A DNA stretch of 48,538 nt from a virus (lineage: Duplodnaviria > Heunggongvirae > Uroviricota > Caudoviricetes). Positions 906 to 36,440 of the stretch are shown in pieces (the stretch's first letter is position 1; each line of letters begins with the position of its first letter). The stretch is taken from the IMG/VR virus record IMGVR_UViG_2740892445_000002. One strand, written 5' to 3'. The translations under genes were made by a program, and so were the position numbers. A model generated the notes under the pieces. That model had not been told where the DNA came from. It was given only the letters and a program-made list of their open reading frames with translations, and did no database searches.

Positions 906-2312
906 TCAGTATCCGGTCGCTTCCCAGAAAAACTTACCGGAGGTTCCTCTGACAGTCCTCAGTGTCACCGACTGCAATGACGGTGAGGACAGAGTGTATC
1001 CAGGAATTTTCCCGGGCTCCCCCACCGGAGAAACCTGAACATTCAGCACTGCTGAAGGAAAAACCACCGGAAAACGGATGGAGTGCAGTGATAACGCCTG
1101 ACCATCGGATTCACTTATCACAAGCGTACCCCATTGTCGCATCCGTCCGGTAGCCTCATCACGTTCCCAGCCATTGACAGCCAGACTCGCCGTCGTGGGT
1201 TTATTCCTGGTACCGTAATCCACCCGCCAGTGGTATTTCCGGGTATCGCCATAAACCGTACAGGTACAGACCGTGCCATTAATAAACCCCGTTGCACCGT
1301 ATTCACCAATGGTGACCCGTACAATGGCGGCGTCATATGTTCCCATCACTTCAATGGTACAGCCGCCCAGATTGAGTTTCCCCGGTCCGACATCAGTGAT
1401 GGCCTTATTCATCGCCGCTGGCAGTGATGCCTTCATTATCCAGCAGGTATGGTCAAATGCCCCCTGCTCTTTCAGCCAGGCAACAAACTCTTCTGTCGTC
1501 CACTCACCTGCTCCGGTTGAAATGTCACGCCCGTATGCTCTGGGCACACCAAGCTCACGGATGAAAGCTTCCCTGTCTGTAATATCTTCAAGGCTGCCTG
1601 ATTTTCCCTGAGGCCCGGCAGGCCCCTGTGGTCCCGGATCTCCCTTTGGCCCTGGAGGGCCACCCGGATCTCCTTTCTCTCCCTTTTCACCCCGTTCGCC
1701 TCTGGGCCCTGTGTCCCCCCTGTCACCTTTTGGTCCCACAGGACCGGCTTTACCCTCAGGTCCTGTGGCTCCGGTATCCCCTTTGGGGCCCGGAACACCC
1801 TGTGCCCCTGTTGCACCACGCTCACCCTGTGGCCCGGTTGCACCTGTCTCACCTTTCGGTCCCTGTACCCCCTGCGGTCCCGGGTCACCTTTATCACCCT
1901 TCGGCCCCCTGGCATTCTCTGCCCGTTTTTTGGCCTCCTCTGCACTGGCTGCGGAGGCTTCAGCACGCTTCAGTATTTCCGCAGCCACCGCTTCCAGCTC
2001 AGCGAGGGCTTTCGGATAATATGGCGCATCCTCAAAGTCCATCAGGAATTTATTCAGTGTTCCCGGTGCAGAGTCCGCCTTCACCAGAATGTCACCGACG
2101 TATGACGGCATACGCCCTTCTGTGTTCAGGGTCACACGGTACAGCCCCGGTTCAACATCCATACTGTAGCTGCCTGTCTCCCCCGGCTGCCCGTATGCCA
2201 CCGTGGTGACAATCACCGTTTCTGTGGTGCGTCGCGCTTTCAGTTCTATTGTGCATCCCGGTACCGGCTTCCCCGCGCCGTCCTTCAGCACACCCGATAT
2301 TCTGACTGCCAT
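906..2312 (-). CDS. stf: side tail fibre protein with collagen-like Gly-X-Y repeats
   Basis: N-terminus [17 protein letters not shown]... matches lambda Stf N-terminus; central run of about 35 G-X-Y triplets ([13 protein letters not shown]...). Confidence 0.85.
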
Positions 2313-2325
2313 AGATTTTCCCCAT

Positions 2326-2359
2326 AAAAAAACCGCAGTGCCGGTTTCCCGGTCTGCGG
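2326..2359 (-). terminator. intrinsic terminator-like hairpin plus U-run just upstream of stf start
   Basis: Minus-strand read CCGCAGACCGGGAAACCGGCACUGCGG followed by UUUUUUU, about 10 nt before the stf ATG. Confidence 0.55.
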
Positions 2360-2688
2360 TAAAAATCGTGGTTTACAGGATTAAAAAGGTGCTATCCGGA
2401 ACCGGAATTCACACAGTGAACTGTGGGTGATCCAGATAATGAGCACTACCGTGATACAAATCACGGTGGTTTTTAACGGTTTTTGCGACACAGAACTTGC
2501 TCCTTATTACGGAGAGGCGCTAACCTGCCACTTGCTTAAGGTAGACGGTTCAGGGCCTCGGGTTAACATTGAAGTTGACTCGGGGCCTTTTCACATCAGG
2601 CCTTCAGGTGTTCCCTCCGGCCATCAGCCAAAGGCACCCGCGCATACTGTACGGTTTTATATCCTTCCGGCAATTCCGGTCATCATGT

Positions 2689-5600
2689 TCACGAAATACT
2701 GATACCCGCCGTGGATTTTTTCATGACCACAACCAGTAAATCACTGATGTATGTTGTCGGCGTCCAGTGGTTCACCCCGTTCGACCACACATTAAACGTC
2801 AGGGTCACATGACCCCGTCCTGCCGGCATATCAATGACGGACGAAAACACCCGGGTGACATCCGTTGCCGGCTCATGAAAAATTACCCTTCCGTTCATCT
2901 GCACCTGTAACTGACACGTGGAATACCATGTTGAAGTGTGATCTTTGCTGGACTGGTGCTCATGTCTCGCCCCCCGGAACAGTACCGGTGGAATGATGAT
3001 CTGCCTGTCGAAGCCCTGGTCATCATAAACGGTGACCGTTATAGTGCCACTGGCATAACTGTTATTCCGTGGGAAAGCTTTCCCCACTGTTTTGACCAGG
3101 TCACCTTCAATCTGGTTTGCAGACAGTTTTCCCAGAATCCGGCAGTTCTGGTTAATGGTCACATTATTGAGCGTGCCAGAGTTCGCATTAATATTTCCGC
3201 TGATATCCGCATTACGGGCCGTCAGCCTGCCTTCCGGCGTCAGGGAGAACACAGGGGGATTGCCGGACGAGGTGATGCTCACCGCAAACAACCGCTTCAG
3301 GAATACGTCGTTCATGAACAACTGATTCCCCTGCGCCACAAACAGCGGCGTGGTGTTGCCGTTCTCCGGGTTAATCATCGCGATACGGTCAGCCTGCAGC
3401 AGAATATTGCTCAGGGTCTGGCCATCAACATCCTCAATCCCCGCACCAATACCAGCAACATACGGAATACCGTTTTTCGTTTTCTGCACCTTCAGCATGT
3501 ACAGTGCGCTCAGGCTGTCATCCGTCTCCTTCTGCACACGCTGTATCTGCTGTATGGTGACACTCTGGTCTTCCAGGATTTTATTGACCGTCTGTGTGAT
3601 TTCATTGCGGGTTTCTGTGATGGTGGTCTTCATCTCCGCCATCTCATCATCAAGCTGACTGTTATCAATCAGCTCCCACATCCCCTGTGCCAGATGTGTC
3701 TTCCCGATTTCTCCTTTGAAAAAGTCCAGATAACCTTCCGCATCATTGCTCGCCCGTCCGGTTGCTTCAACAAAAACGGATTTACCCACCAGGTTGACGC
3801 TGCGCACATAAAACCAGAAATCTGTCCCTGGCTTAATGTGCGAGCCGGAGACGCTCCACTGGCTGCCGGTCCCCAGATAACGGGCGGACGTTTCCACCTG
3901 TGCCGTGTTCGTGATGCGTTTTTCTGAGAACCAGAATTCAAACTGTACCGTCGGATCATACAACGCAAGACGCGGCACTGCTGTTATCTGGAAATAGCCG
4001 GGGGTCAGTTCAATGGTGGCAGGTGCTGCCGGTGCGTTAATCCGGAACGTGGTGGTGGCAGGCTCCCCCAGCTGGCCATAGCTGTTTATCGCCCTGACCG
4101 TCAGGGTGTATTCCCCCAGCGGCAGGCCACTGAAACGGTGCTCCGTGTCGGCGGTGATGGCGCTGGTCACCAGACGGCTGTTTTCACCGGTTCCGCTGGT
4201 CAGGCGCAGACTGAAGCGCACGCCCTTCACCACCCTCGGCGTGTCCCATTTCGCCGCCGCCAGATACTGACCGTCAGACGCGCTTACCTCCACCGTGAGA
4301 TGCTGTACTGCCGGAGGTGTGACACTGTTCAGCGAACCGGACAACGGCTCAAAGGTGGCACCATTATCCACGATGGCCTCCTTCTCCGGCACATGCTGCA
4401 CCGCCGTGATGGCGAAGGTACCGTCCGCATTTTCGCGGATCGCCACACACCGAAACAGACGGCGGCGCAGTCCCGGCAATGCCAGCCCCCAGATACTGTG
4501 TTCCACCACCCCGTCAGGCAGTGTACTGATCTGTATCCTGTCAGGTGATGGCTGCCCGGTAACATCCACACTCACCGGTTTACCGCTGCCGTTTATCAGA
4601 TTCACCGTGGATGTGCCCTTTTCCGGGAGGGTGACTTCACGGTCAAGCGTCAGGGTCCGGCTGGCGTTGTCGACGGACAGGATCCGCCCGCCGATCACGG
4701 TACCGGCATACGCATTATCACTGATTTCAATGATATCGCCCGGCGTGTGACGCAGTCCCTCCGCCCCCACACTGAAATCCACTGTCTGTGTTTCCAGCAG
4801 TTCGGTCTTTATCACCCACAGGCCTGCCCGGTGAGCCTGACCACGGCTGGTACAGCCGAACGCATCCATCTTCAGAAGATTGCGTCCGTAGCGCAGTATG
4901 GCATCCGGATCCTCCACCAGTTCAGTCGATGTCTGCCAGCCATTCTGCGGATCGGTGTAATTCACCTCAACTGCCGTGTGTCTGTCCTTGAGGGCACTGA
5001 AGCTGTAATGAAAACTTACCCCATCCTCCCCCGTCACCACATTACCGGCGGTATAAGTCCAGACAACATCCGATGGTCTGTCCTGAACAAACGTCAGCGT
5101 CTGTCCGTTCCATACCGGCATACAGCGCATTGCAGAGCAGAAATCCCCCAGCACGTCCCACGCCTTACGCTGTTGTGACAGGTACGCATTAAAGGTCATA
5201 CGGGGTTCTGTACCACCAAAGCCATCCGGAACCGGCTGGTCACAGTACTGTCCGAGGGCATAGAGCGCCCACTTGTCCACATCCGCGGCCCCGAGGCGCT
5301 TTCCCATACCATAACGTGGATGCGTCAGCATATCCCACAGACACCAGGCCGGGTTGTTGCTGTATGCCGGTTTCAGAGTCCCGTCCCAGATACCGCTGTA
5401 TGTACGTTTTTCCGGGTCATAGTTTGACGGCACCTGGATGATGCGCCCGCGGATATGGTAGTTCACCGCCATCTGCTGCCCACCGAACTGCTCCGCATCC
5501 ACCTGCAGCCCCACTATGGCTGTGTTCGGGTAGCTCTGTTTCACATCGATGATTTCGGTGTATGACGACCAGAGCGTTCTGTTCTGCAGCTGGTCCGTGG

Positions 5601-6165
5601 TACTGTCCGCCGTCTCCCTGACTATCCGGATATTAAAGGGACGCTCAGGGAGGTTACCGATTATCACCGACGTCAGGTACTGCGAGGTGGTCTTACCGTT
5701 AATGGTGATATCCTTCTCTGTCACCCAGTGCCCGCTACGCTCAAGCTGAATCAGCAACCGGACAGAAGAGGGATTACGGTCACCCTTTGAGGTCGTCTCC
5801 ACCAGTGACTGAACCCCGAAGGTGACCCGCAGACGGTCAATGTTCGCTGACGTGATGGTGCGCGTCACTGGCTTCGCCTTCGTCACCTCCACGCCCAGTG
5901 CGGTTTCCGCACCAGAAGACTCAAAGCCTTCCGGCGGCGTCTGCTCCTGCTCCCCTGCACGCCAGACGGCTGTCACGCCATGTATCACGGGATTACCGTC
6001 CATATCCGTCAGCGGGGTTTTGTTCACCAGAATACTCTGCAGTCCCTTCACCGGACCTTCAACCGGCCCTTCACCAATGGCATCAATCACGCTCATCATC
6101 TGCGTGGACTTCAGGTTATCCTTCGCCTCACGCGGTGTGTGCCCCTTGCCGCCCCCCTTACCCAT
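2689..6165 (-). CDS. J: host specificity protein J (central tail fibre)
   Basis: 1158 aa; N-terminus [22 protein letters not shown]... and extended colinear similarity to lambda gpJ as I recall it. Confidence 0.95.
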
Positions 6166-6206
6166 TGCGTCACCCTTTAGTGTCTGATATCAGTATCTGT
6201 TTATGT

Positions 6207-6238
6207 ACAAAAACAACAGGCACCCCAGAGGGTGCCTG
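6207..6238 (-). terminator. intrinsic terminator-like hairpin in I-J intergenic insert
   Basis: Minus-strand CAGGCACCC-UCUG-GGGUGCCUG followed by UUGUUUUUGU. Confidence 0.5.
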
Positions 6239-6369
6239 TCTGCTGAGTGAATAAAATTCCTGAATTTCTTCACACTTCCGGCAATTACCTGTAGCCACCA
6301 TAATTACGCTGCGTTACTGTTTTCCTGCCTGAAAAATAACTCCATAACGTTAATCTTCATCGTTTATTT

Positions 6370-6403
6370 CCCGCAGCTCCGCTAACTCTGCGGGATTTTT
6401 TTA
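6370..6403 (+). terminator. plus-strand terminator-like hairpin in I-J intergenic insert
   Basis: CCCGCAG-ctccgctaact-CTGCGGG followed by ATTTTTTT on plus strand. Confidence 0.4.
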
Positions 6404-6406
6404 TTT

Positions 6407-7045
6407 TCATCCCCGCCCGATAACCACCACCTTACCGTCTCCGCCTTCATCACGGGTGCTGATGTCCTGGGATATCCGTCGCGACCCCACAAGCATCTCA
6501 CCATAAGGCACCGGCATCGGGTTACCCTGGGCAATCATGTTGTCCAGTGAGGAGAAATACGTGTTCCGTTTACCATTATCTGTTGTCGTGGCAGACGGTG
6601 TTTTCGCCCTGGGGGTGAGCATCTGCGTGATACCCCCCACCATCATGGCCACCCCAAGATTACCGATGACAGCACCAATACCGGTCCAGCTGAATACATA
6701 TCCCACAACAGCCAGAACAGCACCGGCCACCACCTGAAGAACACCGCCGTTTTTTGCCCCCTCCGTCCGGGGCACCAGATGGATAACATTCCCGTCATTC
6801 AACGGCTCACATACTCTGGAATGAAGCTCCTGTTCAGATACATCCCTGCCCGCAATGCGTAACTGATACCATCCCTCATACAGTTTCTGCCGGAATCCCG
6901 GCACCTGCAGCGACAGGGCACGGATGGCCTCCGCAGCCGTGTTCACATACAGGCTGATGCGGCGACCAAATCGTTGTAAATCCCCGTGAAGGCAGATACG
7001 GACCAGTGGCGGTGACGCCAGACAGAATGCGTTCGTCGTTGCCAT
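6407..7045 (-). CDS. I: tail assembly protein I
   Basis: 212 aa, ...ICLHGDLQRFGRRI... and C-terminal GK(R)NTYFSSLDNMIAQGN motif as in lambda gpI. Confidence 0.9.
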   Translation of the reverse strand: MATTNAFCLASPPLVRICLHGDLQRFGRRISLYVNTAAEAIRALSLQVPGFRQKLYEGWYQLRIAGRDVSEQELHSRVCEPLNDGNVIHLVPRTEGAKNGGVLQVVAGAVLAVVGYVFSWTGIGAVIGNLGVAMMVGGITQMLTPRAKTPSATTTDNGKRNTYFSSLDNMIAQGNPMPVPYGEMLVGSRRISQDISTRDEGGDGKVVVIGRG

Positions 7046-7695
7046 TTTTCAGAATACCTCTCCCGTTTACTCAGTTGTTCAGGTATATGGTGAAGCAGTT
7101 CACCATTGCCACAGTAAATGGCAGCATGATTGGGTACCGATGAACCAAAACAGCACAGCAGAATGTCTCCCGCCTGTGCACCGGACAGGGATACCCGGTA
7201 AAAGCCGTTTTCCGCCAGATTGTCCAGGTACAGGTTCTGACCGTTGCGCCACCAGTCATCCTCACGCGCAAAATCCGGCAGCGTTATCCCCGCCAGATGG
7301 TATGCATCCCGGAACAGGGTGTAACAGTCCGTCACACCGTGTTCAAAACGCCGTCCGGTGAGGTGCGGAACGCAGCGGAAATGATGAATTTCGCCCCGGC
7401 AGACCAGCCACCAGGGAATTGCACTTTTTACCTGCAGCCGTCGGTCCGCCTCGCTCAGCCAGGGCAGACCGCCGGGATGACTGTGGACCAGCGCCACAAT
7501 CTCCCCCTGCATATCCGCCCGCAACCAGTCTTCCGGCGCAATACGAAAATACGCCTCCGGCTCTGCAGAAATATTCACGCACGGCTGATACTGCTCCCCC
7601 TCCGGCGTTCTCACCACGAAGCCGCACGACTCCGCTGGCGCACACCGCCGTGCATGCGCCAGAATGGCTGATTCAGTCTGTTCCATGATAATCAC
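6943..7695 (-). CDS. K: tail assembly protein K (MPN/JAB plus NlpC/P60-like)
   Basis: N-terminus ...QTESAILAHARRCAPAESCGF..., HSHPGG motif; overlaps I start by about 100 nt. Confidence 0.85.
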   Translation of the reverse strand: MIIMEQTESAILAHARRCAPAESCGFVVRTPEGEQYQPCVNISAEPEAYFRIAPEDWLRADMQGEIVALVHSHPGGLPWLSEADRRLQVKSAIPWWLVCRGEIHHFRCVPHLTGRRFEHGVTDCYTLFRDAYHLAGITLPDFAREDDWWRNGQNLYLDNLAENGFYRVSLSGAQAGDILLCCFGSSVPNHAAIYCGNGELLHHIPEQLSKRERYSEKWQRRTHSVWRHRHWSVSAFTGIYNDLVAASACM

Positions 7696-8390
7696 TGTGA
7701 AAGTTTATTAATGGAAAGGAAAAAACCGCCGTTTGCCACATTCCCGCGCATTTCACAACCGCGCAGGCACTTGCTGCATTTGTCTTTCCTGATATCCGTG
7801 GTGGGTTTGTCGAACTCGTCAGCCACTGCCGGGCCGTTATACCCACATTCCTCTCCACGGTAATCCCACGGACAGGTATTGGCCAGCATGATACGACCGG
7901 GAAACAGCGCCCCGTCCGTCTCTGCCGGTGTCGCCAGGATAAAGGTCGCCTTTTCGCAGGTCAGCGCTGACAACTGCTCCACCACCCAGCGATCTGTCAA
8001 CTCCTGCTCAGGGTCTGCCTCCGGGTTTCCCGCAACAAAATTCACGGCATCGAGAAAACGGGCGTACACCCGGCGGCGAACCACCGTGCCCCCGACCAGA
8101 CTCTGCAAATCCTCCGCCATGCCGGTGACCAGTCCGAACAGATTCGAGACAATCAGCGACGGTCGCGCACTGCTGCCCTTGCCGTTCATCTCAAAGCCGC
8201 TGCCCTCTATCGGGTATGCCTGATACTGACGCCCCTGCCAGGTGACAGGCTCGCCCTTTTCATTGATTTCACCGCAGAAAAAATAGCGTTCGCCTCCCTG
8301 CGCCTTCAGGTCGATTTCCCACAGCACCACGCGGGCGGACTGCGCTGATTTTACTGCCTCGTTCAGACTCTCCTCATGAATATCCTGCAT
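7692..8390 (-). CDS. L: minor tail protein L
   Basis: Start placed at internal Met (MQDIHEESLNEA...) matching lambda gpL N-terminus; the longer ORF (to 8459) would read through a terminator hairpin. Confidence 0.9.
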   Translation of the reverse strand: MQDIHEESLNEAVKSAQSARVVLWEIDLKAQGGERYFFCGEINEKGEPVTWQGRQYQAYPIEGSGFEMNGKGSSARPSLIVSNLFGLVTGMAEDLQSLVGGTVVRRRVYARFLDAVNFVAGNPEADPEQELTDRWVVEQLSALTCEKATFILATPAETDGALFPGRIMLANTCPWDYRGEECGYNGPAVADEFDKPTTDIRKDKCSKCLRGCEMRGNVANGGFFLSINKLSQ

Positions 8391-8595: not shown

Positions 8596-9759
8596 TCAGA
8601 ACTGATAAGTCATCCCAACAGCAACGATATTATCTGTCGCAATACCGGCTTTCTGGGTAAATTCGCTTTCATCAATCAGGTTAATTTTATAATCAACATA
8701 AGTGGACATATTTTTGTTAAAGTAATAAGTCGCACCGACATCAATATATTTAACCAGATCCTGGTCGCCATGGTTCACACCACCAACCATAACATCCTGT
8801 CCGCGGGACTGCAGATAAGCCAGAGATGGACGCAGGCCAAAATCGAACTGATACTGAGCAACCATTTCAAGGTTTTGTGCTTTATCCGCAACCCCGGTAT
8901 CACCAAAAGTGGTCATATTCTGGGTTTCGGAATAAATTGCAGCCAGATACAGATTGTTTGCATCATATTTAAGGCCAGTCCCCCACATCTCAGCATACTT
9001 ACCTTTTGCAACGCTGCCGGAATCAACGGACACTTCTTTTTCCGTCACATCCCCCGTTAAAGGATCTTTGACTTCAATAGTTTTGCTACCATTCAGGCCA
9101 TTAACCTGCTTACCTGTACGATCTGACTTAGTATACGCTGCCACAAAACCAAAACCATCAAACTCATAGCTGGCAGAGAAACCATATCCATCACCATTAG
9201 ACTTCTGGAGGTCATCTCGCTCATTTTTTCCCTGATACTGGGCTGCAAAGTTAAGACCATCCACCAGTCCGAAGAAATCTGTATTGCGGTAAGTCAGCAC
9301 TCCGGAAGTACGAGCAGTCATGAAGTTATCAGTCTGCGTCCAGCCATCGCCACCAAATTCTGGCAGAACGTCTGTATACGAACCGACATCATAAGCGATA
9401 CCATAATTACGCCCGTAATCAATGCTACCTAAATCAGCGAATTTCAAACCGGCAAATGCCAGACGGGTTTTATTGCCTGCCGTCCCTTCAGACTCGGCCT
9501 TATTACCTGAAAACTGATATTCCCAGTGACCAAAACCTGTCAGTTGATCATTGATCTGAGTCTCACCTTTAAAACCAAGACGTGCATAGGTCTTATCGCC
9601 ATCATCACCTTTATCGTCTGAGAAGTAATGGAGAGCAGTTACACGACCATAAAGATCCAGCTTATTACCATCTTTATTATAAACTTCTGCTGCCTGAGCC
9701 CCCGCAGCAAACATCACTGCCACTGCAACAGCAGAAAGTGCCACTGTCATTTTTTTCAT
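8596..9759 (-). CDS. OmpC/OmpF/PhoE-family general porin (phage moron)
   Basis: 387 aa; signal peptide then [17 protein letters not shown]..., C-terminal YVDYKINL...VGMTYQF porin signature; inserted between tail genes M and L with AT-rich upstream region. Confidence 0.9.
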
Positions 9760-14925: not shown

Positions 14926-15500
14926 CGTTTTATCGCAATCCTCAGTTGTTGTTTCAGCGCGTATGACAGTTCTTCTGGCAGGCGTTCACGCCGGATACGT
15001 TCAATATTCTGTTTAAATGCTGTGGTCAGCGGCACCGCCATCGGGATTTTTACCACATCAATGGGGTAACGGTTTTTCCCGGCCACACGCTGCATGACAT
15101 GCCACCGGCCATTTTTCAGTTGCTGAATAAACGCGCCGGGAATGCGACGGTTACCCACCACAAGCACACTGCCGCCACCTTTCAGGGATGAACGCTGCCC
15201 CTTTTTACGTCGCCTGCGTCGGGACAGGACAACCCGCGCATTACCCAGCCTGATTACGGGCAAATCCCCCCGGTTAACTTTGATTCTGACCTGAGGATTT
15301 TTAACCGTGGCCCTTTTCAGCCTGGCCCTTTCCTTTACCAGTTTCCGGCGTACCTTTGTCTCACGGGCAACCTGTGACGCCGACTGATTTATTGCCGTTG
15401 TGGCCACACTGTTAATGGCCATTGCTGAAGCAGCAGGAATGGCGTTTTTACGAAACCGGCTCAGATTGTCAATAGCCTGATCAAGCCCTTTTATCACCAT
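14922..15500 (-). CDS. Z: tail completion protein Z
   Basis: 192 aa, basic RRRRRKKGQRSSLKGGGS stretch typical of lambda gpZ. Confidence 0.9.
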   Translation of the reverse strand: MVIKGLDQAIDNLSRFRKNAIPAASAMAINSVATTAINQSASQVARETKVRRKLVKERARLKRATVKNPQVRIKVNRGDLPVIRLGNARVVLSRRRRRKKGQRSSLKGGGSVLVVGNRRIPGAFIQQLKNGRWHVMQRVAGKNRYPIDVVKIPMAVPLTTAFKQNIERIRRERLPEELSYALKQQLRIAIKR

Positions 15501-15514
15501 AATTCACCCTGCGT

Positions 15515-29814: not shown

Positions 29815-29846
29815 CAGCCCGTTACCATTCGTAGCGGGCTTTTTTT
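29815..29846 (+). terminator. plus-strand hairpin plus T-run upstream of nanS-p
   Basis: AGCCCG-ttaccattcgta-CGGGCT followed by TTTTTTT. Confidence 0.4.
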
Positions 29847-29851
29847 GTCCA

Positions 29852-29876
29852 TAAAAAAGCCCCTCCGGAGAGGGGC
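29852..29876 (-). terminator. intrinsic terminator after repeat unit 1
   Basis: Minus-strand GCCCCUC-UCCG-GAGGGGC followed by UUUUUUAU. Confidence 0.6.
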
Positions 29877-29898
29877 ATACTAGCTATATATCCATTTA

Positions 29899-30026
29899 TC
29901 ATTGGCTGCGTGGTGCCGGGTGCCTCCCGGTGAGCTCAGTCTGGTGTCACTGAGCCCGCACATTCTCGATCCAAGTTATCGTCGGAGATAATACCTGATA
30001 CACCAGACGCCCCTCCGCACAGGGGG
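29899..30026 (-). repeat. tRNA-like cloverleaf repeat unit 1 (candidate structured ncRNA)
   Basis: Conserved blocks GGTGCCGGGTGCCTCCCGGTG and CCCCTCCGCACAGGGGGATTCACCA; terminal stem CGTGGTG/CACCACG; variable interior. Confidence 0.5.
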
Positions 30027-30263
30027 ATTCACCACGCGCAGAGAAGGATACTGAACACTATTTTCTCCAGGCAATATGCAATAACATGAAGTGTGAGATG
30101 ACTTACAATTATAAAAAACAGCCTACAGAATACTCCTAAATAAAGCCATATCAAAATGAGTAACACAAAAAGGAACCAGGCAAAAATTTACGAGCAGGTA
30201 TTATCCAGCAACAGTTCAGACGCCATAACTTATTGCCGATAGCTACCATCAATAATTTCTTTC

Positions 30264-30289
30264 ATAAAAAAGCCCCTCTGAAGAGGGGC
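30264..30289 (-). terminator. intrinsic terminator after repeat unit 2
   Basis: Minus-strand GCCCCUC-UUCA-GAGGGGC followed by UUUUUUAU. Confidence 0.6.
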
Positions 30290-30316
30290 TGACATACGCA
30301 TTTGCTTTCATCATCA

Positions 30317-30439
30317 ATATGGCGCCGGGTGCCTCCCGGTGCTCCATAACTGATTAATATGGAACGCGGTTTCATTCAGTTGCATTCATGAATAACACTC
30401 TAATCAGTCCGCCCCGCCGCTTAGGGGGATTCGCCATAT
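30317..30439 (-). repeat. tRNA-like cloverleaf repeat unit 2 (candidate structured ncRNA)
   Basis: Same blocks with compensatory changes (GGCGCC... / ...GATTCGCCA); terminal stem ATATGGCG/CGCCATAT; interior closed by ACTGATTA/TAATCAGT. Confidence 0.5.
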
Positions 30440-30574
30440 AAATTGAAAGTACTGAACACATCTGTCACAAACAATATGCAATTGTATGAATTGTGAGATT
30501 ATTATCAATAACACAAAATTACAGCTCTAGTACATAAACAGCAGATTAAACAAGAACAACAAAAGTATTGAATT

Positions 30575-30697
30575 GCACGGTGCCGGGTGCCTCCCGGTGA
30601 ATTCTGCAATGACCAGACAGAATCCGCAACTTGCTACTAACGCTAATGCGACCAAGCCTCAGTCATTATGCCCCTCCGCACAGGGGGATTCACCATG
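30575..30697 (-). repeat. tRNA-like cloverleaf repeat unit 3 (candidate structured ncRNA)
   Basis: Same conserved blocks; terminal stem GCACGGTG/CACCATGC (one mismatch); interior closed by AATGAC/GTCATT. Confidence 0.5.
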
Positions 30698-30827
30698 CGC
30701 TAAAAAAATACAAAACGTCACGTCACTCTGACAATACGAAGCACCATAAAATGTGAGTTATTTATCAATTCTTAATTCTGGTTACAGGAATATTCCGAAT
30801 CAAATCTTTAAAAAAAGAAATTCAAAT

Positions 30828-30930
30828 GCATGGTGCCGGGTGCCTCCCGGTGAACAGACCGTCCGTGATACCAGTAGGCAACACAGGAAATTAATGGTAT
30901 CACCCCACCGCACAGGGGGATTCACCATGC
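30828..30930 (-). repeat. tRNA-like cloverleaf repeat unit 4 (candidate structured ncRNA)
   Basis: Same conserved blocks; terminal stem GCATGGTG/CACCATGC; interior closed by GTGATACCA/TGGTATCAC. Confidence 0.5.
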
Positions 30931-31320
30931 AGGCGTTTTCTTAGCAAACTAACTGCGCGCCCGGCAACTCCCAACCACATAAAACGTGGAGTTTGTAGCA
31001 TTTATGCACATAACTCACAGGGGTTATCTTAAAAAAAGCTGACCATGCTTCCCCGGCAACGCAATAACTTTATTCCCTGAAGTGGCATCCCCCGTATTGT
31101 CGGCAGGCTCAAAAAGGAGCCAGTCATCTGAGGATGACTGGAAAAAGGAAAGATAAAAAATTATTCATCATACAACCTTCGTTGCAGGGGAGAATCCTGC
31201 GGTGCAGCAACATACAAAAACATAAGCCAACTAACAATATGCAGGCATAGCATTTTCGGATTTTGTTATATGGCACGGTAACTGAATGCTTACCTGATAT
31301 ACAGTCCGGTATAAAGTTGC

Positions 31321-31582: not shown

Positions 31583-31660
31583 TGCTGGACCGTCACCGGG
31601 GACTCGAACCCCGCATTTTCAACATAAAAAGGTTGATGCTCTTTCCTGATGAGCTAGTGA
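31583..31660 (-). tRNA. tRNA-like gene with 8-nt anticodon loop CUUUUUAU (Lys-UUU-like; possible variant or pseudogene)
   Basis: Acceptor stem CCGTCAC/GTGACGG, D arm GCTC-ATCAGGAAA-GAGC, T arm CGGGG-TTCGAGT-CCCCG, encoded CCA; anticodon loop one nt too long. Confidence 0.55.
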
Positions 31661-31662
31661 CG

Positions 31663-31737
31663 GCATGGTTGCCTTGCTGGATTTGAACCAGCGACCTGGC
31701 GATTATGAGTCTCTCGCTCTCACCACTGAGCTAAAGG
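31663..31737 (-). tRNA. tRNA-like gene with CAU anticodon (Met/Ile2-like), imperfect acceptor and anticodon stems; possible pseudogene
   Basis: D arm GCTC-AGTGGTGA-GAGC, anticodon loop CTCATAA, T arm GCTGG-TTCAAAT-CCAGC, CCA; only 4 of 7 acceptor pairs form by my reading. Confidence 0.45.
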
Positions 31738-36107: not shown

Positions 36108-36263
36108 TTACTTCTCAGATTCGTAAGCTGTGAAGACAGCGACCTCCGTCTGGCCGGTTCGGATTCGTACCTCGCAGAGGTCTTTCCTCGTTACCAGTAC
36201 CGTTACAACGACGGTAATACAGATGACGATCAGGGCGATTAGCATCGCCTTTTGCTGCTTCAT
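36108..36263 (-). CDS. hokD: Hok-family type I toxin (HokD/RelF-like)
   Basis: 51 aa MKQQKAMLIALIVICITVVVTVLVTRKDLCEVRIRTGQTEVAVFTAYESEK, near-identical to my recollection of HokD. Confidence 0.9.
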   Translation of the reverse strand: MKQQKAMLIALIVICITVVVTVLVTRKDLCEVRIRTGQTEVAVFTAYESEK

Positions 36264-36440
36264 AGCCTGCTGCTCCTTGCCTTTCGGCGCGTAAGAGGCT
36301 AATCTAAGTGTGCAAGTCATAGATATGGCCTCAGATTAATGTTAAGCGTCCTGCAAGACGCATAATGTTAACTGGGGCTTTTCTCTGTCTGCCTTACGTC
36401 GGCATGCCCGAGGCAGACAGCCTCAAGCACCCGCAGCAAT
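36264..36440. promoter_or_regulatory. hok mRNA leader / mok start / antisense Sok region
   Basis: Minus-strand leader GGGUGCUUGAGGCUGUCUGCCUC... resembles hok mRNA 5' end; in-frame upstream start MTCTLRL... Confidence 0.45.

What the first reader, a model, noticed from the sequence alone, without database searches (positions are those of the whole stretch)
6166..6406. 240-bp insert with facing terminator-like hairpins between tail genes I and J
In lambda I and J are almost contiguous as I recall. Here they are separated by a segment with a strong minus-strand terminator (6207-6238) and a plus-strand hairpin plus T-run (6370-6403) flanking about 130 bp with only tiny ORFs. A terminator just upstream of J would require antitermination for J expression, or the segment encodes a small RNA.
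Basis: seen in the sequence. Interest (0 to 1): 0.4.

Follow-up and report, generated by a model that had tools for sequence, protein, structure and literature searches.

The report
Prophage small-RNA gene between tail genes
The gap between tail genes I and J of this lambda-like prophage holds an unannotated copy of a known Hfq-dependent small regulatory RNA gene (called EcOnc22-24 in EHEC and PasB in EPEC), read backwards relative to the tail genes, next to a terminator-like hairpin just upstream of J, where lambda also has a hairpin.

Summary
I (7045..6407) and J (6165..2689) lie on the minus strand, separated by 241 bp. That gap holds two strong, conserved hairpins. One is terminator-like on the minus strand (stem 6215-6240, then GUUGUUUUUG). 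The other is a plus-strand intrinsic terminator (6369-6395 plus U7).

The plus-strand hairpin ends a small-RNA gene transcribed antisense to the tail operon. The predicted RNA (6311-6402) is 92% identical to EcOnc22 of E. coli O157 Sakai prophage Sp15. EcOnc22 is a ~85-nt RNA seen by Northern blot, bound by Hfq and destabilised without Hfq. The window RNA also belongs to the same cassette family as PasB of EPEC E2348/69 (83 nt, Hfq-dependent, 37 RIL-seq partners). PasB sits at the same I-J junction.

The cassette has a conserved upstream block, a variable 24-nt spacer, a TATAAT-like -10, a variable RNA body, and a conserved AAUCUUCAU motif plus terminator. It occurs in 1282 of 5426 complete E. 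coli genomes, in the rows shown never under an annotated feature, and in arrays of up to four copies.

The minus-strand hairpin appears to belong to the native I-J spacer, because lambda's 60-nt spacer has one at the same place. Late, Q-modified polymerase presumably reads through it.

Targets of the RNA are unknown. It is a new member of a known kind and of modest interest.

The parts
6407..7045 (-). Tail assembly gene I. Its stop codon is 5 nt from the end of the sRNA U-tract on the other strand.
   Evidence: ORF list; Pfam PF06805 Lambda_tail_I, E 1e-17.
2689..6165 (-). Tail tip / host specificity gene J.
   Evidence: ORF list; Pfam Ig_J, FNIII-A_GpJ, Ig_GpJ_C and other gpJ domains.
6205..6240 (-). 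Sense-strand intrinsic-terminator-like hairpin (stem 6215-6240, loop of 4) followed on the minus strand by GUUGUUUUUG. Its U-tract ends about 40 nt upstream of the J start codon.
   Evidence: Terminator scan. Fold gives -21.8 kcal/mol, z -3.8. Present in 78 of 128 related I-J gaps. One compensatory C-G to T-A change appears in many variants. It occurs only once per gap, next to J, even when several cassettes are present. Lambda has a hairpin at the analogous place.
6249..6278 (+). Conserved upstream block of the sRNA promoter (GAATAAAATTCCTGAATTTCTTCACACTTC). It contains TCTGA-N6-TCACA-like half-sites centred about -44.5. This is the best-conserved stretch of the gap outside the sRNA's 3' end, which the search pattern fixed.
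   Evidence: Alignments. The block is repeated in front of every cassette in tandem arrays. Its core variants are listed. Its function as a regulator-binding or UP-like element is inferred.
6299..6304 (+). -10 hexamer CATAAT of the sRNA promoter.
   Evidence: A TATAAT-like hexamer sits at a fixed offset from the block in 50 of 57 unique cassettes: TATAAT 19, AATAAT 18, TATCAT 8, CATAAT 3, GATAAT 2. The 24-nt spacer upstream of it is hypervariable. No good -35 exists, and the simple promoter scan finds nothing.
6311..6402 (+). Predicted primary transcript of the small RNA (EcOnc22/PasB family), about 92 nt. The abundant species may begin near 6326, giving about 77 nt.
   Evidence: 92% identity (85 of 92) to Sakai EcOnc22. 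The site complementary to the Northern probe is at 6337-6364, 28 of 28 bases. The CLASH fragment GCCTGAAAAATAACTCCATAACGTTAATCTTCA is identical at 6327-6359. The window RNA aligns with PasB at 64 of 75 positions, and the annotated PasB 5' end corresponds to window ~6326. The start at 6311 is inferred from the -10 hexamer.
6350..6360 (+). Conserved single-stranded motif UUAAUCUUCAU just 5' of the terminator. It is a candidate Hfq-binding or seed element.
   Evidence: Nearly invariant across the subtypes that carry this terminator, although AATCTTC was part of the search pattern used to collect most of them. It lies inside the Hfq CRAC peak once coordinates are converted. Its role is inferred.
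6369..6402 (+). Rho-independent terminator of the sRNA: 8-bp stem UCCCGCAG/CUGCGGGA, an 11-nt variable loop, then U7.
   Evidence: -13.2 kcal/mol, z -3.6. The stem never varies while the loop varies. The PasB Northern probe covers the same terminator.

Best explanation
The I-J gap contains a self-contained small-RNA gene inserted backwards into the tail operon.

A promoter drives plus-strand transcription from about 6311. It consists of a conserved upstream block (6249-6278), a variable spacer and the -10 hexamer CATAAT (6299-6304). Transcription ends at the intrinsic terminator 6369-6402, which abuts the stop codon of I.

The product is a roughly 77-92-nt RNA. It is mostly unstructured and A/U-rich, with an AAAAAUAAC (A-R-N type) stretch, a conserved UUAAUCUUCAU motif and a U-tailed terminator hairpin. 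It belongs to the EcOnc22/23/24 (EHEC) = PasB (EPEC) family. Members of that family are made in lysogens, bind Hfq and depend on Hfq for stability.

By inference it acts as a trans-acting, Hfq-dependent base-pairing RNA on host and/or prophage transcripts. That would make it a lysogenic-conversion 'moron' rather than a tail-assembly function. Its targets are not known.

The second hairpin (6205-6240, minus strand) is not part of the RNA gene. It appears to belong to the native I-J spacer, since lambda has an analogue. It looks like a sense-strand intrinsic terminator that would stop ordinary polymerase before J, while Q-modified late polymerase reads through.

Shown here: the anatomy, the conservation, and the homology to validated RNAs. 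Inferred: the transcription start, expression of this particular copy, the trans-acting mode of action, and the termination and read-through behaviour of the sense hairpin.
For: Anatomy.

Homology to EcOnc22. The Sakai Sp15 I-J gap is 2902691-2902930 in NC_002695.2. Table S2 of Tree et al. 2014 lists EcOnc22 on the plus strand, ~85 nt, destabilised in delta-hfq, with EcOnc23 (Sp14) and EcOnc24 (Sp11) as homologues. The reverse complement of the Northern probe matches the plus strand just 5' of the terminator and matches window 6337-6364 exactly. A CLASH fragment fixes the shift between old and new Sakai coordinates at +135, which places the Hfq peak on the RNA body. Identity to the window RNA is 92%.

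Homology to PasB. Table S6 of Pearl Mizrahi et al. 2021 gives the coordinates and probe. That locus is the 240-nt I-J gap of prophage PP6, antisense to the tail genes, and it aligns with the window along the whole gap.

Family architecture and spread. The cassette is in 1282 of 5426 complete E. coli genomes, at 4417 places, with no annotated feature under the match in the rows shown ('none' also).

Tandem arrays of 2-4 cassettes, each with its own upstream block, -10 hexamer and U-tailed 3' hairpin, show that the block belongs to the plus-strand gene.

Lambda comparison.

Other sense-strand terminators are tolerated inside this late operon, for example after the porin gene.
Against: No expression data exist for this window's copy.

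The promoter has no recognisable -35, and the simple sigma-70 scan finds nothing in 5000-8000.

The 5' end is uncertain. The -10 hexamer predicts about 6311, but the PasB annotation and the EcOnc22 reads start at the equivalent of about 6326.

The terminator stem shows no covariation. It never varies, and part of it was in the search pattern.

The only target lead, yjbJ (ECs5028), rests on one or two RNase E-CLASH hybrid rows seen for each of EcOnc22 and EcOnc23. Its complementarity is not statistically exceptional.

The sense hairpin is missing from 50 of 128 related gaps. In 33 of them, the ~346-nt and 1602-nt classes, another, bidirectional hairpin stands in its place. The 15 gaps of the sodC class showed no minus-strand terminator in the one example scanned. 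It is therefore not essential for J.

The lambda hairpin does not pass the simple terminator scan.
Confidence: 0.8

Rival explanations
1. The plus-strand RNA works mainly in cis or as a true antisense. It is perfectly complementary to the I-J intercistronic part of the late tail mRNA of its own phage, and nearly so to that of co-resident relatives. It would pair with that mRNA during induction and change processing or J expression, for example by limiting tail production or interfering with competing prophages.
For: The gene is strictly antisense to the tail operon at this junction in every locus examined. Genomes that carry the cassette hold a median of 3 copies and up to 10, so cross-talk between prophages is possible. 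No convincing trans target is known.
Against: The RNA is made in uninduced cultures, when the late mRNA is absent. PasB has 37 RIL-seq partners elsewhere in the genome. The sodC gene occupies the same site in the same orientation, so the orientation may only reflect insulation from late transcription. Nothing tested here bears on J expression.
Confidence: 0.12
2. The minus-strand hairpin terminates a second, divergently transcribed small RNA of about 85-90 nt. It would start near the palindromic -10 region and contain the conserved block, so the gap would hold a divergent pair of sRNA genes.
For: The -10 region is partly palindromic. On the minus strand, the conserved block folds into a hairpin directly upstream of the terminator. 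In one variant the changed stem pair remains a G.U pair only on the minus strand.
Against: In tandem arrays every cassette carries the block, but the minus-strand hairpin occurs only once, next to J. No minus-strand Hfq peak is listed in the Sakai I-J gaps. No acceptable minus-strand promoter was found. Lambda has the hairpin without any cassette. The opposite single-side variant, with a G.U pair only on the plus strand, also exists.
Confidence: 0.08
3. The gap is only a transcriptional insulator: two back-to-back terminators separating I from J, with no functional RNA product.
For: Both hairpins look like terminators. Other sense-strand terminators occur inside the late operon.
Against: Homologous loci give a discrete, Hfq-bound, Hfq-stabilised RNA in two pathotypes. 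A conserved -10 hexamer and upstream block sit at fixed spacing. The plus-strand terminator faces away from any upstream plus-strand gene.
Confidence: 0.04
4. The gap encodes a small protein on the minus strand: the 43-aa ORF 6301..6170, or the 18-codon ORF that starts at the ATG complementary to 6358-6360.
For: These ORFs exist. Some phage records annotate 'hypothetical protein' ORFs here.
Against: The start codon of the 43-aa ORF is present in only 3 of 57 cassette variants and is ATT in Sakai. The ATG of the short ORF is ACG in several subtypes. Lengths vary by non-multiples of three. The ORFs annotated in different phages differ in position and frame.
Confidence: 0.02

Closest known systems
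EcOnc22 / EcOnc23 / EcOnc24 of E. coli O157:H7 Sakai (prophages Sp15, Sp14, Sp11; Tree et al. 2014, PMC4104026; review PMC7873438)
   Same: For EcOnc22 the place (I-J gap) and strand (antisense to the tail genes) are the same. The terminator is identical, and 85 of 92 bases match overall. The probe site and the CLASH fragment are identical over 28 and 33 bases. EcOnc22/23/24 gave a ~85-nt Northern band, an Hfq CRAC peak, and loss of stability without Hfq.
   Different: There are seven differences, all in the 5' leader and just before the terminator. The -10 hexamer is CATAAT instead of AATAAT. The host prophage is different and has no stx gene in the window. Nothing has been measured for this copy. 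Targets are listed as unknown as of 2021.
PasB of EPEC E2348/69 prophage PP6 (Pearl Mizrahi et al. 2021, PMC8550237; Zhu, Shabalina and Storz 2026 preprint)
   Same: Same junction, same orientation, a 240-nt gap with the same left hairpin, upstream block, -10 hexamer, AUCUUCAU motif and CCCGCAG/CUGCGGG terminator. PasB is 83 nt, Hfq-dependent, and has 37 RIL-seq interactions.
   Different: It is a different body subtype. The variable region has a 6-nt insertion and several substitutions. Identity is 64 of 75 aligned bases and 183 of 251 alignment columns over the gap.
AgvB / AsxR anti-sRNAs (prophage sRNAs downstream of PR')
   Same: These are prophage-borne, Hfq-binding sRNAs that form a family with a conserved 3' part and a variable 5' part. 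They contain A-R-N-type motifs and occur in several copies per genome.
   Different: They lie at a different locus (the late-promoter/lysis region, not the tail operon) and are shorter (51-60 nt). There is no sequence relationship: Rfam 15, which the Pas preprint cites as holding AgvB (RF02702) and AsxR (RF02703), gives no hit in the gap. A sponge function has not been shown for this family.
Phage morons in late operons, such as the prophage sodC genes of O157 (D'Orazio et al. 2008, PMC2569942)
   Same: Extra DNA with its own terminator and an inferred promoter of its own is inserted between conserved late genes. In 15 of 128 related loci the same I-J junction carries a Cu/Zn superoxide dismutase gene in the same antisense orientation, followed by a promoter-less copy of this sRNA body and terminator.
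   Different: The cargo here is a non-coding RNA rather than a protein.
The I-J spacer of phage lambda
   Same: A GC-rich sense-strand hairpin followed by a U-rich tract lies shortly upstream of the J start.
   Different: The lambda spacer is 60 nt, has no antisense gene, and has an unrelated hairpin sequence. The lambda hairpin fails the simple terminator scan.

Membership tests
EcOnc22-24 / PasB prophage sRNA family | Encoded in the gap between tail genes I and J, antisense to them | tested here: met
   Window. Sakai Sp15. EPEC PP6.
EcOnc22-24 / PasB prophage sRNA family | Sequence similarity to the experimentally detected RNAs, including the sites complementary to their Northern probes | tested here: met
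   85 of 92 bases match EcOnc22. The EcOnc22 probe site matches 28 of 28. 64 of 75 aligned bases match PasB, whose probe covers the shared terminator.
EcOnc22-24 / PasB prophage sRNA family | Rho-independent terminator (CCCGCAG, loop, CUGCGGG, then U6-8) at the 3' end | tested here: met
EcOnc22-24 / PasB prophage sRNA family | Own promoter: conserved upstream block, 24-nt spacer and TATAAT-like -10 | tested here: met
   Block at 6249-6278 and CATAAT at 6299-6304, at the family's fixed offset. Promoter activity itself was not tested.
EcOnc22-24 / PasB prophage sRNA family | Transcribed as a discrete RNA of about 83-85 nt in lysogens | not testable with these tools
   Known only for the Sakai and E2348/69 homologues.
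EcOnc22-24 / PasB prophage sRNA family | Binds Hfq and is destabilised without it | not testable with these tools
   Known only for the homologues. The window RNA has the U-tail and an A-R-N-like stretch.
Rho-independent terminator (sense-strand hairpin 6205-6240) | GC-rich stem-loop directly followed by a U-tract on the transcribed strand | tested here: met
   11-bp stem with 7 G-C pairs, tail GUUGUUUUUG. One compensatory pair change is seen across relatives.
Rho-independent terminator (sense-strand hairpin 6205-6240) | Actually releases unmodified RNA polymerase, and is read through by Q-modified polymerase | not testable with these tools
   Inferred from established knowledge of lambda Q antitermination.
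Phage moron | Extra DNA between genes that are adjacent in relatives, with its own promoter and terminator | tested here: met
   The lambda gap is 60 nt against 241 nt here. The terminator is established and the promoter is inferred. The same site holds sodC in other prophages.
AgvB / AsxR / GcvB or any Rfam family | Score at or above the family's gathering threshold | tested here: not met
   No gathering-level hit in the gap. The best sub-threshold hits are anti-hemB at 18.2 bits (threshold 49.5) and GcvB at 16.8 bits (threshold 42), both driven by the terminator.
CRP-activated class II promoter (a reading considered for the conserved block) | TGTGA-N6-TCACA site centred at -41.5 | tested here: not met
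   The right half-site is a perfect TCACA. The left half-site is TCTGA, or CCTGA in the window. The centre is about -44.5 relative to the predicted start. This was worked out by hand, without a weight matrix.

The most novel reading that the evidence does not exclude
The I-J junction of lambdoid prophages may be a dedicated landing site for a modular, fast-diversifying sRNA cassette. In this reading, one shared regulator-binding promoter block and one shared Hfq/terminator module frame a hypervariable targeting region. Cassettes can then be stacked up to four in a row or combined with sodC. A quarter of E. coli genomes would carry a co-regulated 'library' of phage-borne regulatory RNAs with different targets, and EcOnc22-24 and PasB would be two samples of it.
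Probability: 0.3. Interest if true: 0.5.

Novelty: new member of a known kind. Interest (0 to 1): 0.3.

Why it matters
The element is common. It is found in 24% of complete E. coli genomes, often in several copies, yet none of the matches listed lay under an annotated feature and it is absent from Rfam. Genome annotation and prophage comparisons therefore miss a real gene.

Linking PasB (EPEC) with EcOnc22-24 (EHEC) merges two separate experimental data sets on one family: Hfq CRAC and RNase E-CLASH in EHEC, and RIL-seq in EPEC. Recognising the common promoter block and the variable body gives concrete handles for finding the regulator and the targets.

For phage biology, the locus is a further example of regulatory cargo placed backwards inside the late operon, and of sense-strand terminators that only antiterminated polymerase should pass.

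None of this changes current understanding, because the RNA itself was already described.

Tried and rejected
AgvB. I first suspected AgvB because of a weak GcvB-like Rfam hit. AgvB and AsxR lie downstream of PR', not here, and the GcvB hit is far below threshold.

HnrS and EcOnc27. HnrS (EcOnc10-12) and EcOnc27 are other prophage sRNAs at other loci.

Table S2 coordinates. The coordinates of EcOnc22 in Table S2 seemed at first to fall on the left hairpin. The probe and a CLASH read showed that the paper used an older Sakai sequence version, shifted by 135 bp.

yjbJ as a target. The CLASH hybrids are real, but there are only one or two rows seen per sRNA. By RNAduplex energy, 55 of 3000 background segments were as good. 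By local alignment, a score of 26 falls in about the top 0.7%. The complementarity is therefore not exceptional.

Structure of the RNA body. RNAalifold supports only the terminator and shows no covariation.

Small ORFs. They are not conserved.

Readings of the conserved block. It is not a -35 element, because the spacing to the -10 is 24 nt. A sigma-54 reading fails because there is no GG-N10-GC. A CRP class II reading fails because the centre is at -44.5. A LexA reading gives only 11 of 16 matches, and the site lies outside the core promoter. All four were checked by hand and none is convincing.

Data and scans that gave little. Term-seq and dRNA-seq tables of Sy et al. 2020 are not held as text. 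The genome-contig scan gave mostly chance matches. Only Escherichia albertii was genuine, plus a 460-nt contig labelled Parendozoicomonas that matches the EcOnc22-type cassette and that I take to be contamination.

Porin gene idea. I considered that the sense hairpin might stop transcription coming from the upstream porin gene. That gene has its own terminator at 8428-8411.

Full report
**What is there.**
The window is a lambda-like prophage whose late genes run leftwards, on the minus strand. J is 6165..2689 and I is 7045..6407. Both are confirmed by Pfam. The gap between them is 6166-6406, 241 bp.

- One is terminator-like on the minus strand, the sense strand of the tail operon. Its 11-bp stem spans 6215-6240, its loop is 4 nt, and it is followed by GUUGUUUUUG. 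Its energy is -21.8 kcal/mol with z -3.8.
- The other is a plus-strand terminator. Its 8-bp stem pairs 6369-6376 with 6388-6395 and is followed by U7 at 6396-6402. Its energy is -13.2 kcal/mol with z -3.6.

Under a strict definition the whole window has 12 such sites against 1.45 +/- 1.3 in Markov simulations. Only three are on the plus strand, and two of the twelve sit in this 241-bp gap.

**Relatives.**
The gap is homologous, at 70-88% identity, to the I-J gap of 147 phage records, mostly Stx-converting phages. A 164-bp core of it is found at 4417 places in 1282 of 5426 complete E. coli genomes. The median is 3 copies per carrying genome and the maximum is 10. No annotated feature lay under the match in any row shown. 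Four genomes (M1, M3, M18, CI5) carry it at 100% identity. Outside E. coli, only Escherichia albertii gave genuine matches among species representatives. Rfam 15 has no family for it.

**Identity of the plus-strand element.**
Tree et al. 2014 list an Hfq-bound RNA, EcOnc22, on the plus strand of Sakai prophage Sp15. It is ~85 nt by Northern blot and destabilised in delta-hfq, with homologues EcOnc23 (Sp14) and EcOnc24 (Sp11). In the current Sakai sequence the Sp15 I-J gap is 2902691-2902930, with both genes on the minus strand.

The reverse complement of the published Northern probe matches the plus strand just 5' of the plus-strand terminator in Sakai. It matches window 6337-6364 at 28 of 28 bases. 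An RNase E-CLASH fragment assigned to EcOnc22, GCCTGAAAAATAACTCCATAACGTTAATCTTCA, is identical in the window. It also fixes a +135-bp shift between the paper's coordinates and the current record. After that correction the Hfq peak lies on the RNA body. The predicted window RNA (6311-6402) is 92% identical to the Sakai one. A 2021 review still lists its targets as unknown.

Independently, Pearl Mizrahi et al. 2021 described PasB in EPEC E2348/69. It is 83 nt, strongly Hfq-dependent, has 37 RIL-seq interactions, and is higher under non-activating conditions. Its coordinates fall in the 240-nt I-J gap of prophage PP6, antisense to the tail genes. That gap aligns with the window along its whole length, sharing the left hairpin, upstream block, -10 hexamer, AUCUUCAU motif and terminator.

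EcOnc22-24 and PasB are therefore members of one family. I found no statement of this in the papers I read.

**Architecture of the family.**
Aligning 20 and then 75 distinct gaps shows the following order on the plus strand:
- a conserved block, GAATAAAAWTTCTGAAWWTCTTCACATTT;
- a hypervariable 24-nt spacer;
- a TATAAT-like hexamer at a fixed offset, present in 50 of 57 unique cassettes;
- GCGTTAC and a U-run;
- a variable A-rich body;
- a conserved UUAAUCUUCAU motif;
- the terminator.

About ten body subtypes exist. RNAalifold supports only the terminator, so the 5' ~70 nt is unstructured in consensus.

In some prophages the gap holds two, three or four complete cassettes in tandem. Each has its own block and -10 hexamer, and each ends in a U-tailed hairpin. 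This shows that the block belongs to the plus-strand promoter and not to a minus-strand transcript.

The simple promoter scan finds nothing here, and there is no good -35. The promoter is therefore inferred, and may depend on an activator. What binds the block is unknown.

The start of the RNA is also uncertain. The -10 hexamer predicts about 6311. The PasB annotation and the EcOnc22 reads begin at the equivalent of about 6326, which would fit 5' processing or imprecise mapping.

**The sense-strand hairpin.**
It is present in 78 of 128 related gaps. In another 33, the ~346-nt and 1602-nt classes, a different, bidirectional hairpin stands at the same place. The one gap of the sodC class that was scanned showed no minus-strand terminator. 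One stem pair shows a compensatory C-G to T-A change across variants, and single-side intermediates occur in both directions.

The hairpin occurs once per gap, always next to J, however many cassettes are present. Lambda's own 60-nt I-J spacer has a GC-rich hairpin followed by UUUUGUCAUUU at the analogous place (-21 kcal/mol, z -2.8), although it fails the simple terminator scan.

I therefore read this hairpin as part of the native spacer. On that reading the RNA cassette, about 165 bp, was inserted between the I stop codon and the hairpin. Since lambda late transcription is Q-antiterminated (established knowledge), read-through in lytic growth is expected. Another sense-strand terminator inside this late operon, after a porin gene, shows that such sites are tolerated. 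Termination and read-through were not tested.

**Function.**
Shown for homologues: the RNA is made in uninduced cultures, binds Hfq, and needs Hfq for stability. Inferred for this copy: it is a trans-acting base-pairing RNA carried as lysogenic-conversion cargo.

The only specific lead for the EcOnc22 subtype is yjbJ, from CLASH hybrids with EcOnc22 and EcOnc23 that map inside the coding region. The reads are few, and the complementarity is not exceptional against background.

A cis-antisense role on the late I-J mRNA cannot be excluded. The same junction carries the known prophage sodC gene in the same orientation in 15 of 128 loci, which marks it as a general moron site.

**Verdict.**
The element is an unannotated member of a described sRNA family. 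New here are:
- the PasB = EcOnc22-24 link;
- the common promoter block;
- the tandem arrays;
- the lambda hairpin comparison.

These are useful but incremental, so interest is modest.

Noticed in passing
window 8596-9759 (-), terminator 8428-8411 (-): A full-length Gram-negative porin gene (Pfam Porin_1, E 4e-144) sits between tail genes M and L. It is followed by its own strong sense-strand terminator (GGGGCGCGTCTGCGCCCC plus T6) just before what is probably the real start of L. It looks like a protein moron inside the tail operon.
   Followed up: partly
window 2313-2688: The gap between J and the next tail-fibre gene also has facing hairpins. One is a plus-strand terminator-like hairpin at 2446-2469 followed by a T-run. 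The other, at about 2327-2362, reads as a hairpin plus T7 on the minus strand directly upstream of the fibre gene. No Rfam hit and no EcOnc22-type promoter block were found. It could be another antisense RNA gene.
   Followed up: no
window 29847-30960 (-), 29816-29840 (+), 31589-31737 (-), 36258-36432 (-): There are four tandem STnc100 matches (77-133 bits) with a convergent plus-strand terminator hairpin next to them, two tRNA genes just beyond, and a sok antitoxin RNA (115 bits). The STnc100 cluster resembles the sRNA 'dyads' described downstream of PR' in EHEC prophages.
   Followed up: no
L122 (reverse complement) 1380-2300; L121 (reverse complement) 6010-6740; also L053, L128, L130, L021, L045: These are expanded I-J gaps of 424-929 bp with 2-4 tandem sRNA cassettes. 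One body type is quite different and has another terminator (CTCCCGTCA...TACGGGAGATTTTTT).
   Followed up: partly
L058 and 14 other loci (I-J gap of about 854 bp): The gap carries a Cu/Zn superoxide dismutase gene (Sod_Cu, E 4e-32) antisense to the tail genes, with its own terminator. It is followed by an sRNA body and terminator that lack the promoter block. That RNA might be made by read-through or processing of the sodC transcript.
   Followed up: partly
L200 246-305 (lambda 15445-15504): Lambda's I-J spacer contains a GC-rich sense-strand hairpin with a U-rich tail (GAAACCGCC-UGCG-GGCGGUUUU-GUCAUUU). No feature other than the I and J coding sequences is annotated over this stretch in the lambda record used.
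   Followed up: partly
L016 (Stx2a_1447) 1-258: An IS66-family transposase gene replaces the 5' end of J immediately next to the left hairpin of the gap, so that prophage has a disrupted J.
   Followed up: no
window 906-2312 (-): The 468-aa protein encoded downstream of J has a long collagen-like Gly-X-Y repeat region ([28 protein letters not shown]...).
   Followed up: no
L155 (460-nt contig labelled Parendozoicomonas haliclonae): This contig is almost identical over the stretch shown to the EcOnc22-type cassette. I take it to be E. coli prophage contamination in that assembly.
   Followed up: no
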